Virus record (IMG/VR): IMGVR_UViG_2690316062_000001
Coordinates: 1-41,023 of that record
From: a virus
Lineage: Duplodnaviria; Heunggongvirae; Uroviricota; Caudoviricetes
Direction: 5' to 3' (one strand)
DNA: 41,023 nucleotides
Shown here: positions 27,890 to 31,176 of the stretch, one piece after another
Numbering within the stretch: the first letter of the stretch is position 1
Layout: every line of letters starts with the position of its first letter
Translations under genes and position numbers: made by a program
Notes under the pieces: model-generated
Seen by the model: the letters and a program-made list of their open reading frames with translations, nothing else
Told to the model about the DNA's origin: nothing
The model's database searches: none

Positions 27890-28117
27890 TTAGGCGGCAG
27901 AATTACTCGCGTTAAACAATGGTGCGAGGTCGGGACGAATATCTGCTGGTTTAATCTTTCCACCAGTGGCTGAGACAATTTTCATTACATAGCGGGCATC
28001 AATTCCGCCACCGTGTAGCCAACGCCAAACTGTGGGTTGGGCTACACCGCATAGATCTGCCAGTCGTTTTTGACTGCCTGTAATACTGATTGCGAGTTGA
28101 ATGGTTTGATTTGTCAT
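27890..28117 (-). CDS. Cro/YdaS-like HTH repressor
   Basis: Start at ATG preceded by AGGA; HTH QKRLADLCGVAQPTVWRWL; divergent from cI. Confidence 0.6.
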   Translation of the reverse strand: MTNQTIQLAISITGSQKRLADLCGVAQPTVWRWLHGGGIDARYVMKIVSATGGKIKPADIRPDLAPLFNASNSAA

Positions 28118-28151
28118 TATCAATTCCTATTGGTATTGCAATGAATGAATA

Positions 28152-28227: not shown

Positions 28228-28920
28228 ATGAAAAAAGAAACTCTTGCTGATCGCTTAAATCTAGCGATGGAACAATCTGGAATGTCTCAAGGCGCTCTTG
28301 CAAAGGCGTCTGGCGTAGCTCAACCCACAATCTGGAGACTGACAAGCGGCAACGCGCGCGGCTCAACAAAAATTGTTGAAATAGCTAATGCATTGGGTGT
28401 TCGAACAGAATGGCTCTCTTCAGGCATAGGCCCGATGAGAAATGACGGTCAACAATCAGGGAAGCCTGCTGTCAGCCATTCCAAATACTTCAAAATTGAC
28501 GTTCTTGATATAGAAGTCAGTGCCGGGCCGGGTGTAATCAACCGTGAGTTTGTAGAAGTTCTACGCTCGGTTGAATACTCGTTTGACGATGCTCGTCACA
28601 TGTTCGATGGCAGGAAGGCGGAAAATATCCGCATCATTAACGTGCGTGGTGACAGCATGTCAGGAACGATCGAACCAGGTGATCTGCTGTTCGTTGATAT
28701 CACGGTTAAATCTTTCGACGGTGATGGTATCTATGCGTTTCTGTATGACGACACCGCCCATGTAAAACGCCTGCAAATGATGAAGGATAAGCTGCTGGTT
28801 ATCTCTGATAACAAGAGCTACTCACCGTGGGACCCGATCGAGAAAGACGAGATGAACCGCGTGTTCATCTTCGGGAAAGTCATCGGGAGCATGCCGCAGA
28901 CATATAGAAAGCATGGGTAG
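28228..28920 (+). CDS. CI-type repressor (HTH plus S24 LexA-like autopeptidase)
   Basis: N-terminal HTH QGALAKASGVAQPTIWRL; C-terminal GDSMSGTIEPGDLLFVD (Ser) and HVKRL (Lys) catalytic dyad. Confidence 0.85.
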   Translation: MKKETLADRLNLAMEQSGMSQGALAKASGVAQPTIWRLTSGNARGSTKIVEIANALGVRTEWLSSGIGPMRNDGQQSGKPAVSHSKYFKIDVLDIEVSAGPGVINREFVEVLRSVEYSFDDARHMFDGRKAENIRIINVRGDSMSGTIEPGDLLFVDITVKSFDGDGIYAFLYDDTAHVKRLQMMKDKLLVISDNKSYSPWDPIEKDEMNRVFIFGKVIGSMPQTYRKHG

Positions 28921-29004
28921 AAATCAGAACAAAATTATGCACTTCGCTTTTCAGCTTACTGTAGTAAGGCAATAAATTAGGCTTGACGTTAGCTATCAGG
29001 TGCA

Positions 29005-29019
29005 CAACAATAATTGTTG
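29005..29019. promoter_or_regulatory. Perfect 15-bp palindrome CAACAATAATTGTTG upstream of cassette
   Basis: Read directly; lies 31 nt upstream of the 29050 ATG, after a TTGACG -35-like hexamer at 28983-28988. Confidence 0.4.
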
Positions 29020-29049
29020 AATAATAGGTTTTTTTAACTAGGTGATAAC

Positions 29050-30189
29050 ATGGCAGCGGTTGAATTTCAATTGTCTAGGAAGATGATTGATTGGATAGCA
29101 AATTCTCAAGGAGTTTCTATCGAAACTCTTGCTGACCAAGTCATGCCCAAAAAGATTAATAAATTTCTTAACGGAGTGGTAAGTAAATCCGCAGCAGAAA
29201 AACTGGCAAAAATTGGAGGAATCCCTTTCGGTTTTTTATTTCTTGAAACGCCACCAACTCCAGCCAAACCCAAGATCCCTGACTTAAGGCAAGCTATAAA
29301 TAGCCGTGAGTTAGGAAAAGATTTTTTTGATGTTTACTATGATATAGAATATAAACTTGAGTGGTACAAAGACTATTTAAGAGAAAATGGTAATGATGAT
29401 CCACTCGATTTTATTGGTAAATTTAAATTTAATAGAAAATTAAATTATAAGGTTGTTGCTACAGACATAGCAAACACAATACATTTTGATATACAAAAAG
29501 AGATAAAAAATGTCACTTTTGAGAGCTATTTTTCTAAAGTGGCAAAATTAATAGAAGACACTGGCGTATTAGTTTTCAAGAATGGTGTTGTGGGTAATAA
29601 TAATAAAAGAAAACTTGACACGCGAGAGTTTCGTGGTTTCTGTATATCTGATAGCGTTGCTCCGATCATTTTTGTAAATAGCTCGGACGCGTTATCTGCG
29701 CAGGTATTTACATTATTTCATGAGGTGGCTCATCTTTGGCTTGGAGTCGATGGAGTCTCTGGGTGGGACACAGAAAAAAACATAGAATCTTTTTGTAATA
29801 AAGTTGCTGCTGAAATCTTAATGCCTGATAATCTCTTCAAATCTTTCTGGCTTAATGCATCCAGCGATAATAATTATTATCGAGTAAAAGAGGTTTCTAA
29901 GTTATTTAAGGTTAGTGATTTCGCTTGTGCAATCAAAGCGTTACAATTAGATTTGATAGAAAGAAACACTTTGGAGATAATTAAAGATCAAGCTTACAAT
30001 AAGCCCAAAAAAGAATCTAATGGTGGTTCTTTCTTTAACACATTACCTGTTCGTAACAGTCCAAAACTTACGAATATAATAATTTCCAAAGCAATGTCTC
30101 AACAATTACCATTAAGGGAAGCAGGCGTACTGCTAAATGTAAAAGCAGATACAGTTGTTGAATTTTATAAAAAACGAGAATCTCTATGA
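29050..30189 (+). CDS. HTH domain fused to ImmA/IrrE-family zinc metallopeptidase (COG2856)
   Basis: AGGTGA RBS; N-terminal HTH-like segment; HEVAHLWLG (HExxH) followed by VAAEILMP, the ImmA/IrrE signature; strongly AT-rich. Confidence 0.8.
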   Translation: MAAVEFQLSRKMIDWIANSQGVSIETLADQVMPKKINKFLNGVVSKSAAEKLAKIGGIPFGFLFLETPPTPAKPKIPDLRQAINSRELGKDFFDVYYDIEYKLEWYKDYLRENGNDDPLDFIGKFKFNRKLNYKVVATDIANTIHFDIQKEIKNVTFESYFSKVAKLIEDTGVLVFKNGVVGNNNKRKLDTREFRGFCISDSVAPIIFVNSSDALSAQVFTLFHEVAHLWLGVDGVSGWDTEKNIESFCNKVAAEILMPDNLFKSFWLNASSDNNYYRVKEVSKLFKVSDFACAIKALQLDLIERNTLEIIKDQAYNKPKKESNGGSFFNTLPVRNSPKLTNIIISKAMSQQLPLREAGVLLNVKADTVVEFYKKRESL

Positions 30190-30698
30190 TTCATAATGGA
30201 AAATTCTTAATTGATAGTAATGTCTTCATAGAGGCAAAAAACTTTGCATATAACTTCAATTATTGCAAAATATTTTGGGATTTTCTTCTCGCTTTACACA
30301 TTAATGGTCTGATTTATAGCATTAATGCTGTAAAAAAAGAACTATGTGCAAAAGATGATCCATTGTGTAAATGGATTAAAGAAGAGTTACCATCATCATT
30401 CTTCGAAGATGAGCATAGTTCAATAGAAAATTATGCAAAGTTAATAAATTGGTCAACTAAATTAGATGTTACCGAAAAGGCAAAGTTTGATTTTGCAAGC
30501 CATGAAAAAGCAGATGCTTTTTTAATAGCCCATGCGATGACACATGGATATACTATTATTACCCATGAGAAACCATCCGGTGGCAAACCTAAAAAAAGAA
30601 TAATGATCCCGGATGCTGCTGCTTCTCACGGCGTTAAGACATTAACACTATATGAATTTCTTCCAAGATACGCTAGTCATAATTTTTCTTTGAAATAA
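30186..30698 (+). CDS. PIN-like nuclease domain protein (DUF4411 family)
   Basis: ATGA start/stop overlap with upstream gene; N-terminal FLIDSNVFIEAKN PIN-like strand with Asp; further acidic residues spaced as in PIN folds; ...IAHAMTHGYTIITHE. Confidence 0.7.
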   Translation: MIHNGKFLIDSNVFIEAKNFAYNFNYCKIFWDFLLALHINGLIYSINAVKKELCAKDDPLCKWIKEELPSSFFEDEHSSIENYAKLINWSTKLDVTEKAKFDFASHEKADAFLIAHAMTHGYTIITHEKPSGGKPKKRIMIPDAAASHGVKTLTLYEFLPRYASHNFSLK

Positions 30699-30703
30699 AA
30701 CGT

Positions 30704-30730
30704 CCCGGCCACCGTGCCGGGTTTTCTTTT
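30704..30730 (+). terminator. Rho-independent terminator ending the cI-cassette operon
   Basis: CCCGGC-caccgt-GCCGGG followed by TTTTCTTTT, 6 nt after the stop at 30698. Confidence 0.7.
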
Positions 30731-30860
30731 GCCTCCCCTCATCACACACACCGTTCAAAAAACCACCACAACCCCGCTTCAGTTATCGCTATGCGATGCA
30801 AGTCACAAAATTAATTCTTTTTGCTATCAAATATTTAATATCAAAACACATCTAGCAATA

Positions 30861-30889
30861 GCAATAAGTATTGATATCATCAATAGCAA
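30861..30889 (+). promoter_or_regulatory. PL-like promoter with operator-like repeats
   Basis: TTGATA-17 nt-TATTAT; spacer and flank carry AGCAATAGCAATA / CAATAGCAATAGC, the same motif as in the cro-cI intergenic region. Confidence 0.45.
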
Positions 30890-31176
30890 TAGCTATTATC
30901 ACCATGTCGCAACAACACAACGATACGGCAATCACCTGATTCACCGTTGCGATGACCGCTTAGATCCGCAGCTTGAATTTCAGCAGGCTCCGGGGAGTGC
31001 GAGGGGTGAAGCGGACGCGTGAACGTCGGTGTGACCAGCTGAAATCAACTCAACACTTCATACCTTAGTCGCTTCAACGAGGCGGCTTAGTTATGACAAC
31101 CGGCGGCCATCCACCGCCTGAATACGCGCAGAAGTCTCTATATGTTCAGCAGCCCAGCTTACGGGCAGGAGTTTTT

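What the first reader, a model, noticed from the sequence alone, without database searches (positions are those of the whole stretch)
29005..29019. Perfect 15-bp palindrome immediately upstream of the ImmA-PIN cassette
CAACAATAATTGTTG lies 31 nt upstream of the cassette start codon, next to a TTGACG -35-like hexamer. Its sequence is unrelated to the AGCAATAGCAA motif in the cI/cro control regions. A dyad-symmetric site at this position is what an autoregulatory HTH domain (the N-terminus of gene 1) would bind, implying the cassette has its own regulated promoter in addition to any read-through from PRM.
Basis: inference. Interest (0 to 1): 0.4.

Follow-up and report, generated by a model that had tools for sequence, protein, structure and literature searches.

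The report
Cassette promoter with a lineage-specific palindrome
The 15-bp palindrome is real, but its left half is the strictly conserved -10 element of the cassette's own promoter while its right half is absent or differently spaced in related cassettes, so it is an ordinary promoter, not a conserved repressor-binding site.

Summary
CAACAAT-A-ATTGTTG is at 29005-29019 as described, with TTGACG at 28983-28988 and the ATG at 29050. As a palindrome it is weak evidence: 31 inverted repeats with arms of at least 7 bp occur in the window, and 8% of random 129-nt sequences of this composition contain one.

The comparison with homologous cassettes decides the matter. I recovered the HTH-ImmA/DUF4411 cassette (Rosmer-like toxin-antitoxin or defence module) from 11 further lineages by protein identity (gene 1 53-82% identical). 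It sits behind different repressors, DinI or YdcA. In all of them TTGACG, a 17-nt unconserved spacer and CAACAAT are invariant. The right-arm columns are no better conserved than background.

An ACAAT/ATTGT dyad is present in 6 of 13 promoter lineages, with spacers of 1, 2 or 3 nt, and absent in 7. The closest relative has an N-terminal domain 64/70 identical and no dyad. Two nearly identical N-domains (67/70) sit behind dyads of different spacing. A circulating E. coli allele, C29008A, breaks the palindrome.

So the "own promoter" part is well supported. This is an ordinary feature of low interest.

The parts
28983..28988 (+). -35 hexamer TTGACG of the cassette promoter
   Evidence: Consensus scan. 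All six columns are 100% identical in 11 cassette lineages retrieved by protein, not by DNA motif.
28989..29005 (+). 17-nt spacer. It is not conserved except for T29001 and C29005 (-13).
   Evidence: Mean commonest-base fraction over the first 16 spacer columns is 0.57, against 1.00 for the hexamers.
29006..29011 (+). -10 hexamer AACAAT. Together with C29005 it forms the left arm of the palindrome.
   Evidence: CAACAAT is invariant in all 11 lineages, down to 53% protein identity. The spacing to -35 is always exactly 17.
29005..29019 (.). The reported palindrome CAACAAT-A-ATTGTTG
   Evidence: It is perfect only in the E. coli lineage. The allele C29008A breaks it in at least 4 of 33 genomes.
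29013..29019 (+). Right arm ATTGTTG, covering about -5 to +2 of the promoter. It is lineage-specific.
   Evidence: The 7-nt arm at 1-nt spacing is found only in the E. coli lineage: other lineages carry a 5-nt ATTGT arm at a 2- or 3-nt spacer, or no arm at all. In the ungapped anchored comparison the columns just downstream of CAACAAT, which contain the right arm, score 0.45-0.73 against a background of 0.55.
29018..29020 (+). Predicted transcription start, 7-9 nt after the -10 hexamer (inferred, not mapped)
   Evidence: Inference from sigma-70 promoter geometry. The distance from the -10 hexamer to the ATG is 32-40 nt in all lineages.
29040..29045 (+). Shine-Dalgarno AGGTGA, preceded by a T-run at 29029-29035
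   Evidence: GGTG is invariant in alignments A2 and A3.
29050..30189 (+). Gene 1: Xre-like N-domain + M78 (ImmA/IrrE) peptidase + helical C-domain. Predicted antitoxin/regulator.
   Evidence: Pfam PF06114 1e-13. PADLOC capP 1e-14 and RmrA about 1e-7. PDB 9vzy_A 2e-20. AF2 model pLDDT 83. Foldseek hits to CapP and IrrE.
30186..30698 (+). Gene 2: DUF4411 PIN-like predicted nuclease toxin/effector. Its start overlaps gene 1 by 4 nt.
   Evidence: Pfam PF14367 1e-37. Always follows gene 1 in homologous loci. Matelska 2017, PMC5499597.
30704..30721 (+). Terminator hairpin CCCGGCCACCGTGCCGGG + T-run. It belongs to the phage backbone and closes the cargo slot.
   Evidence: From 30704 onward the sequence matches more than 1100 E. 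coli prophages and lambda-like phages.

Best explanation
The palindrome marks the core of the cassette's own sigma-70-type promoter. TTGACG (28983-88) is the -35 element. After a 17-nt spacer, AACAAT (29006-11), preceded by an invariant C at -13, is the -10 element. This is the left arm. Transcription is predicted to start near 29018-29020, giving a leader of about 31 nt with a T-run and the SD AGGTGA. The bicistronic HTH-ImmA/DUF4411 message would end at the hairpin at 30704-21. No terminator lies between cI and the cassette, so read-through from the cI promoter probably adds to it, as for rexAB in lambda (own knowledge).

The right arm (29013-19) lies between -5 and +2. It descends from a short ATTGT motif that has slid relative to the -10 by small indels in different lineages. 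The perfect 7+1+7 symmetry is peculiar to the E. coli lineage. The symmetry is therefore most likely incidental, or at most a lineage-specific tuning site. It is not the conserved operator of the gene-1 HTH.

Shown here: the sequence, conservation of the promoter elements, non-conservation of the right arm, and the mobility of promoter plus genes as one unit. Inferred: promoter activity, the start site, and lack of binding.
For: - The cassette is cargo. Homology to other prophages carrying the same cI stops at the cI stop codon (28920) and resumes at 30704. The same cI is followed by other genes in SE11, LF82 and O157:H7 (SIR2).
- Homologous cassettes (gene 1 53-82% identical) lie after at least 8 different repressors, after DinI and after YdcA.
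- In 11 lineages found by protein identity, all 6 columns of TTGACG and all 7 of CAACAAT are 100% conserved at a fixed 17-nt spacing. The spacer averages 0.57 and the 16 nt after the -10 average 0.55.
- Dyad table: window has spacer 1 and arm 7; L082, L102, L083 and L087 have spacer 3 and arm 5; L121 has spacer 2 and arm 5; L081, L086, L088, L090, L092, L097 and L100 have arm <=2.
- L081 has an N-domain 64/70 identical to the window's and no dyad. L102 and L121 have N-domains 67/70 identical to each other but spacers of 3 versus 2.
- Allele C29008A (GF8, MJ-T, CDF6, M24FEP) breaks the palindrome.
- There is no excess of upstream palindromes in 62 distant homologues.
- The palindrome alone is expected in about 8% of such intergenic regions.
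Against: - A perfect 7-bp right arm next to a fixed left arm is unlikely by drift alone, roughly 1e-3 to 1e-2 even starting from an ancestral ATTGT. Its position over -10/+1 is the classical place for a repressor.
- Gene 1 does carry an Xre-like N-domain, and type II antitoxins usually autoregulate.
- ATTGT persists in 6 of 13 lineages, which is more than random sequence would give, although shared descent explains that.
- Invariance of a non-consensus -10, including C(-13) and T(-17), hints at an additional constraint beyond RNA polymerase.
- No transcription data were available, so promoter activity is inferred from conservation only.
Confidence: 0.6

Rival explanations
1. Autoregulatory operator. 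A dimer of the gene-1 protein, alone or with the DUF4411 partner, binds the dyad through its N-terminal Xre-like domain. It occludes the -10/+1 region and represses the cassette promoter, as type II antitoxins do. Operators would differ from lineage to lineage.
For: - The dyad overlaps -13 to +2 of a conserved promoter.
- The N-domain is a five-helix Xre-like bundle, homologous to the HTH cro/C1 domain of PDB 9vzy_A and locally similar to C.BclI.
- HTH-COG2856 fusions next to PIN toxins are predicted regulated TA systems (PMC2701414; PMC5499597; PMC10440598).
- A shorter ACAAT/ATTGT dyad occurs in 5 other lineages.
- A Morganellaceae homologue has a different promoter carrying its own pair of ATTAAT hexamers.
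Against: - The right arm is at background conservation.
- The dyad is absent in 7 of 13 lineages, including the one with the most similar N-domain (64/70).
- Spacers of 1, 2 or 3 nt would rotate the half-sites by about 35-70 degrees. Nearly identical N-domains (67/70) face spacers of 2 and 3.
- A natural allele breaks the left arm.
- There is no family-wide palindrome signal.
- Pfam finds no HTH even at E<=10, and the family has a 2-residue deletion at the turn/recognition helix relative to 9vzy_A.
Confidence: 0.3
2. Site for another protein, shared with cI. The cassette palindrome and the near-identical palindrome inside cI (28363-28379) would be bound by the same factor: a host protein, the phage repressor or the gene-1 protein. 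That would couple or loop the 641-bp segment.
For: Only 0.02 matches with <=1 mismatch are expected per window, and one is found 641 bp away. Further CAACAAT half-sites lie at 28450 and 30100.
Against: - The cI site encodes STKIVE and is present unchanged in cI alleles that have never had the cassette next to them (SE11, O157:H7 Z1833, LF82).
- The cassette's CAACAAT is invariant behind unrelated repressors.
- The two sites therefore have independent histories.
- The cI operators use a different motif.
Confidence: 0.04
3. RNA or terminator element. In read-through transcripts from cI the palindrome would fold into a hairpin that terminates or processes the message before the cassette.
For: A T-run (29029-29035) lies 9 nt downstream of the palindrome.
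Against: - The hairpin is A/U-only with a 1-nt centre. The centroid structure is -2.5 kcal/mol, and the 71-nt segment folds worse than its shuffles (z = +1.04).
- The terminator scan reports nothing here.
- There is no Rfam match.
- The stem is not conserved.
Confidence: 0.01

Closest known systems
Moron promoters in the cI-to-PL slot of lambdoid prophages (lambda rexA-rexB, with PRM read-through plus the internal PLIT promoter)
   Same: Same genomic slot, directly after cI and before the immunity-region terminator and OL/PL. The cargo is AT-rich (33% vs 49% GC), has its own promoter, and has no terminator separating it from cI. The slot holds alternative defence-type cargo in related prophages.
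   Different: The genes are unrelated to rexAB. The details of lambda transcription are from my own knowledge and were not tested here.
Type II toxin-antitoxin operators (e.g. HigA, MqsA and other Xre-type antitoxins binding palindromes that overlap their promoter)
   Same: An HTH-bearing first gene, a nuclease-like second gene with overlapping reading frames, and a dyad over the -10/+1 region.
   Different: In characterised systems both half-sites are needed. Here only the half that is the -10 element is conserved across homologous cassettes, and the spacing varies. No binding data exist.
RosmerTA (RmrA Zn-peptidase antitoxin + RmrT toxin) and the 'HTH-DUF955 + DUF4411/PIN' three-component TA prediction
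   Same: Gene 1 has the RmrA-like architecture (small N-terminal HTH + ImmA/M78 peptidase, about 380 aa) and weak full-length hits to RmrA models. The pairing with DUF4411.1 is the one described by Matelska 2017 and noted by Ernits 2023.
   Different: RmrA scores are marginal (E about 1e-7). The best PADLOC hit is capP, and gene 2 hits no PADLOC model. Neither toxicity nor defence has been tested for this cassette, and nothing is published on its promoter.
Protease/repressor switches ImmA-ImmR (ICEBs1), CapP-CapH (CBASS), IrrE-DdrO (Deinococcus)
   Same: The M78 peptidase fold is closest to CapP (7t5t) and IrrE (3dti). In those systems an Xre-type repressor sits on a palindromic operator in the regulated promoter and is cleaved on a stress signal.
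   Different: There the repressor is a separate small protein with a conserved operator. Here the HTH is fused to the peptidase, no separate small HTH gene belongs to the cassette, and no conserved dyad exists.

Membership tests
Sigma-70-type promoter | -35 and -10 hexamers close to TTGACA/TATAAT at 16-18 nt spacing, with A at position 2 and T at position 6 of the -10 | tested here: met
   TTGACG-17-AACAAT scores 9/12. The scan alone is not evidence: 13 sites were found against 10 expected.
Sigma-70-type promoter | The elements, but not the spacer sequence, are conserved among orthologous upstream regions and keep their position relative to the gene | tested here: met
   13 of 13 hexamer/C(-13) columns are invariant in 11 lineages. 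The spacer averages 0.57. The distance to the ATG is 32-40 nt.
Sigma-70-type promoter | A mapped transcription start and activity in vivo | not testable with these tools
   No transcript data are available. It needs 5'-RACE or a reporter fusion.
Autoregulatory operator of an HTH antitoxin/repressor | Dyad-symmetric site overlapping the promoter | tested here: met
   The 7+1+7 dyad at 29005-29019 covers -13 to about +2.
Autoregulatory operator of an HTH antitoxin/repressor | Both half-sites and their spacing are conserved wherever the cognate DNA-binding domain is conserved | tested here: not met
   The right arm is at background conservation. The dyad is absent in 7 of 13 lineages. Spacers are 1, 2 or 3 nt. 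N-domains 64/70 and 67/70 identical face different or missing dyads.
Autoregulatory operator of an HTH antitoxin/repressor | The adjacent gene product has a DNA-binding HTH | tested here: inconclusive
   There is no Pfam HTH hit at E<=10. However, the protein is homologous to PDB 9vzy_A, an 'HTH cro/C1-type domain-containing protein' (E 2e-20, with a 2-residue gap at the turn). The AF2 model has a five-helix N-domain, with local Foldseek similarity to C.BclI.
Autoregulatory operator of an HTH antitoxin/repressor | Demonstrated binding and repression | not testable with these tools
   Needs EMSA or footprinting and reporter assays.
RosmerTA-like toxin-antitoxin/defence cassette (context of the site) | HTH + M78 Zn-peptidase antitoxin gene adjacent to a toxin gene | tested here: inconclusive
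   Gene 1 hits PF06114 and has the invariant HExxH motif (H224, E225, H228). RmrA hits are only at E about 1e-7 and capP scores better. Gene 2 is DUF4411, PIN-like, with no PADLOC model. Toxicity is untested. IS1 splits gene 1 in two strains that keep gene 2.
Intrinsic terminator / structured RNA | Stable G+C-rich hairpin directly followed by a U-run, or a known RNA family | tested here: not met
   (z = +1.04).
Operator of the prophage cI/Cro switch | Matches the repeated operator motif of OR/OL | tested here: not met
   AGCAATAGCAA and its variants occur only at OR and OL. The palindrome shares only a CAAT core.

The most novel reading that the evidence does not exclude
The invariant, non-consensus CAACAAT (with C at -13 and T at -17) would be more than a -10 element. 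It would also be the primary recognition site of the cassette's own Xre-like/ImmA protein, or a sigma-S-selective -10. The variable right arm would then be an optional second half-site that sets a lineage-specific repression level. In the E. coli lineage a small deletion would have created a full 15-bp operator that happens to match, or has been matched to, the palindrome inside the neighbouring cI gene. That would allow the defence cassette and the prophage repressor gene to be sensed together.
Probability: 0.07. Interest if true: 0.45.

Novelty: new member of a known kind. Interest (0 to 1): 0.2.

Why it matters
The result gives a concrete promoter, conserved across lineages, for an uncharacterised Rosmer-like HTH-ImmA/DUF4411 cassette. 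That cassette occupies the rex slot of many enterobacterial prophages. The promoter travels with the genes, which is useful for anyone cloning the system under native control. The result also warns that the palindrome is not a reliable operator prediction. Beyond that it is an ordinary promoter region.

Tried and rejected
- The repeat finder did not list the palindrome, because its arms are shorter than the 10-nt minimum length I set for that call.
- A megablast of the cassette against phage genomes found only the backbone terminator. A tblastn of gene 1 in phages found two remote hits, which I did not use.
I used them only for the negative palindrome-enrichment test, which looks for perfect arms only and would miss imperfect operators.
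- Pfam on the isolated N- and C-terminal parts of gene 1 gave nothing.
- Literature searches for 9VZY, and for any promoter or operator study of HTH-COG2856/DUF4411 cassettes, found nothing specific.
- I considered cI binding because the -10 AACAAT differs by one base from the AGCAAT operator repeat, and 29006-29021 is 12/16 identical to 30860-30875. I rejected it as within chance and inconsistent with the cassette's presence behind unrelated repressors.
- I considered an IHF site. It does not fit WATCAANNNNTTR.
- I considered a terminator or RNA hairpin and rejected it.
- I considered the cI-internal near-copy as a partner site. I judged it coincidental because it exists in cI alleles without the cassette.

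Full report
**Observation.** The window is a lambdoid prophage of E. coli, 100% identical to strain CI5 over the region.

On the + strand the local order is:
- cro-like gene, 27890-28123 (minus strand)
- OR
- cI (HTH_3 + S24 peptidase), 28228-28920
- a 129-nt gap
- gene 1 (M78/ImmA peptidase), 29050-30189
- gene 2 (DUF4411, PIN-like), 30186-30698
- a terminator hairpin, 30704-30721
- OL/PL, then gam, bet and exo

CAACAATAATTGTTG lies exactly at 29005-29019. It is a 7-bp inverted repeat around a single central A. TTGACG is at 28983-28988, and the ATG follows the palindrome after 30 nt. The description is therefore correct.

As a statistical object the palindrome is weak. The window holds 31 inverted repeats with arms of at least 7 bp and spacers of 0-3 nt. 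Simulated sequences with the composition of this 33%-GC gap contain one in 7.9% of cases, or 2.8% for a 50-nt promoter-sized stretch.

**What the surroundings are.** The cassette is cargo in a variable slot.
- Sequence shared with other prophages stops at the cI stop codon and resumes at 30704.
- The same cI allele occurs full-length in 761 complete E. coli genomes, but the cassette occurs in only 33.
- Behind the same cI, other strains carry a SIR2 gene (O157:H7 Z1833) or pairs of hypothetical genes (SE11, LF82).

Gene 1 matches Peptidase_M78, PADLOC capP, and weakly but over its full length the RosmerTA antitoxin RmrA. It also matches PDB 9vzy_A, 'HTH cro/C1-type domain-containing protein' (E 2e-20).

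An AlphaFold model (pLDDT 83) has three parts: a five-helix N-domain (residues 10-64), the peptidase, and a helical C-domain. Foldseek finds CapP and IrrE for the peptidase, and the controller protein C.BclI locally for the N-domain. Pfam sees no HTH in the N-domain even at E<=10. Relative to 9vzy_A the family lacks two residues at the turn/start of helix 3.

The pairing of an HTH-COG2856/DUF955 fusion with DUF4411.1 has been predicted to be a three-component toxin-antitoxin system (Makarova 2009, PMC2701414; Matelska 2017, PMC5499597). It belongs to the ImmA/Rosmer zone of TA and defence systems (Ernits 2023, PMC10440598; Millman 2022 preprint). I found nothing published on its promoter.

**Comparative test.** I retrieved the DNA around gene-1 homologues by exact protein look-up. 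Gene 1 plus DUF4411 always travel together, and the context changes:
- at least eight different prophage repressors, with or without an S24 domain
- DinI next to tail-fibre genes (L083-85)
- YdcA (L082, L102)

Alignment of the upstream regions was followed by an ungapped comparison anchored on the -35, in 11 lineages chosen by protein only. All six columns of TTGACG and all seven of CAACAAT are invariant. So is a T four nt upstream of the C, and an A seven nt upstream of the -35. The spacing is always exactly 17 nt. In contrast, the spacer averages 0.57 commonest-base fraction, the 25 nt upstream 0.51 and the 16 nt downstream 0.55. GGTG and ATGGC at the ribosome-binding site and start codon are conserved too.

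This pattern holds down to 53% protein identity (Klebsiella). It is replaced by a different promoter-like sequence only in Morganellaceae and beyond. It is the signature of a functional promoter that belongs to the mobile unit. The left arm of the palindrome is simply C(-13) plus the -10 hexamer AACAAT.

**The right arm.** The columns that form the right arm (0.45-0.73) are no better conserved than background. A motif scan of IMG/VR added one more lineage. I then measured, for 13 promoter lineages, the longest perfect inverted copy abutting CAACAAT.

| Lineages | Spacer (nt) | Arm (bp) |
|---|---|---|
| window | 1 | 7 |
| L082, L102, L083, L087 | 3 | 5 (ACAAT/ATTGT) |
| L121 | 2 | 5 |
| L081, L086, L088, L090, L092, L097, L100 | - | 2 or fewer |

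The pattern reads as an ancestral ATTGT a few nt after the -10 that has been moved by small indels and eroded by substitutions.

Two natural experiments bear directly on the operator idea.
- L081 encodes the N-domain most similar to the window's (64 of 70 residues identical), yet it has no dyad.
- L102 and L121 encode N-domains 67/70 identical to each other, yet they sit behind dyads with 3-nt and 2-nt spacers.

Within E. coli the 111-nt promoter region has three alleles. One of them, C29008A, breaks the palindrome. It occurs in isolates from Swiss chicken meat, a Chinese mink, human urine and Lebanese chicken faeces. Finally, 62 more distant homologues show no excess of perfect palindromes in the 100 nt upstream of the gene: one has p<0.05, the median p is 0.8, and imperfect dyads would be missed.

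**Other readings.**
- *RNA or terminator.* As RNA the segment is unstructured (z = +1.04). The hairpin is A/U-only, no terminator is called and there is no Rfam hit.
- *cI/Cro operator.* The cI/Cro operators use AGCAATAGCAA-type repeats found only at OR and OL.
It is one mismatch from the palindrome, and only 0.02 such matches are expected per window. However, it encodes STKIVE and is present unchanged in cI alleles that have other cargo downstream. Conversely, the cassette's CAACAAT is invariant behind unrelated repressors. The two sites therefore have separate histories, and the resemblance is most economically a coincidence. I list it as unexplained, not functional.

**Mechanism and verdict.** The best-supported reading (about 0.6) has these elements:
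- The site is the core of the cassette's own sigma-70 promoter.
- The start is predicted near 29018-29020, with a leader of about 31 nt.
- Input from cI read-through is probable, because no terminator intervenes.
- The perfect symmetry is a lineage-specific accident or tuning feature.

A perfect 7-bp arm over -10/+1 next to a gene with an Xre-like domain is suggestive.

The strict invariance of a non-consensus -10, including C(-13), is the only slightly unusual feature. It could reflect selection on expression level, sigma-S selectivity, or a half-site for a regulator. None of these can be tested here.

The feature is a new instance of a known kind (a moron promoter, possibly with an overlapping operator) and of low general interest.

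Noticed in passing
window 28363-28379 (inside cI, codons S58-E63); also 28450-28456 and 30100-30106: A perfect 7-3-7 palindrome, TCAACAA-AAA-TTGTTGA, lies 641 bp upstream and is one mismatch from the cassette palindrome (0.02 expected per window). It is present in cI alleles that lack the cassette. Extra CAACAAT copies lie at 28450 and 30100.
   Followed up: partly
window 28921-30703; loci L094, L095, L096: The slot directly after the cI stop codon is a variable cargo/defence hotspot. It holds ImmA-DUF4411 here, a SIR2-family gene in O157:H7 Z1833, and unrelated pairs of hypothetical genes in SE11 and LF82. Homologous ImmA-DUF4411 cassettes sit after at least 8 different prophage repressors, and also after DinI and YdcA.
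   Followed up: partly
window 30852-30898 (OL/PL region): AGCAATAGCAA repeats are interleaved with a perfect palindrome, TATTGAT-ATC-ATCAATA (30869-30885), and with AATAG|CTATT (30888-30897). These are probably the real cI operators, and their architecture is unusual (direct repeats plus dyads). No N-like gene is obvious between PL and gam.
   Followed up: no
L138 (E. coli ATCC 43886) 1061-1758; also strain E2528-C1: IS1 is inserted in gene 1 at about codon 187. It splits the gene into an HTH-containing fragment and a peptidase fragment, while the DUF4411 gene stays intact. Either the split antitoxin still works, or the effector is not expressed, or it is not toxic on its own.
   Followed up: partly
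window 30103-30186 (gene 1 residues ~352-378): The C-terminus LPLREAGVLLNVKADTVVEFYKKR looks like a second helix-turn-helix. R356, A358 and L362 are invariant across 22 homologues. It is an alternative DNA-binding candidate to the N-domain.
   Followed up: no
L083 ~2871-2895: In the DinI-context cassette a CTGT-N8-ACAG (LexA-box-like) sequence lies about 110 nt upstream of gene 1, between dinI and the cassette promoter.
   Followed up: no
L103-L105 ~1935-1975: Morganellaceae homologues (54% identical) lack TTGACG/CAACAAT. Instead they have TTGACC-N17-AATACT, with two palindromic ATTAAT hexamers 11 bp apart across the spacer and the -10. This may be a different, lineage-specific control site.
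   Followed up: no
L082 vs L102 (upstream regions and first ~10 codons): Nearly identical YdcA-context promoter regions are joined to gene-1 alleles only about 55% identical overall. This implies recombination with a breakpoint near the start of gene 1, so the promoter and the N-domain are exchangeable.
   Followed up: partly
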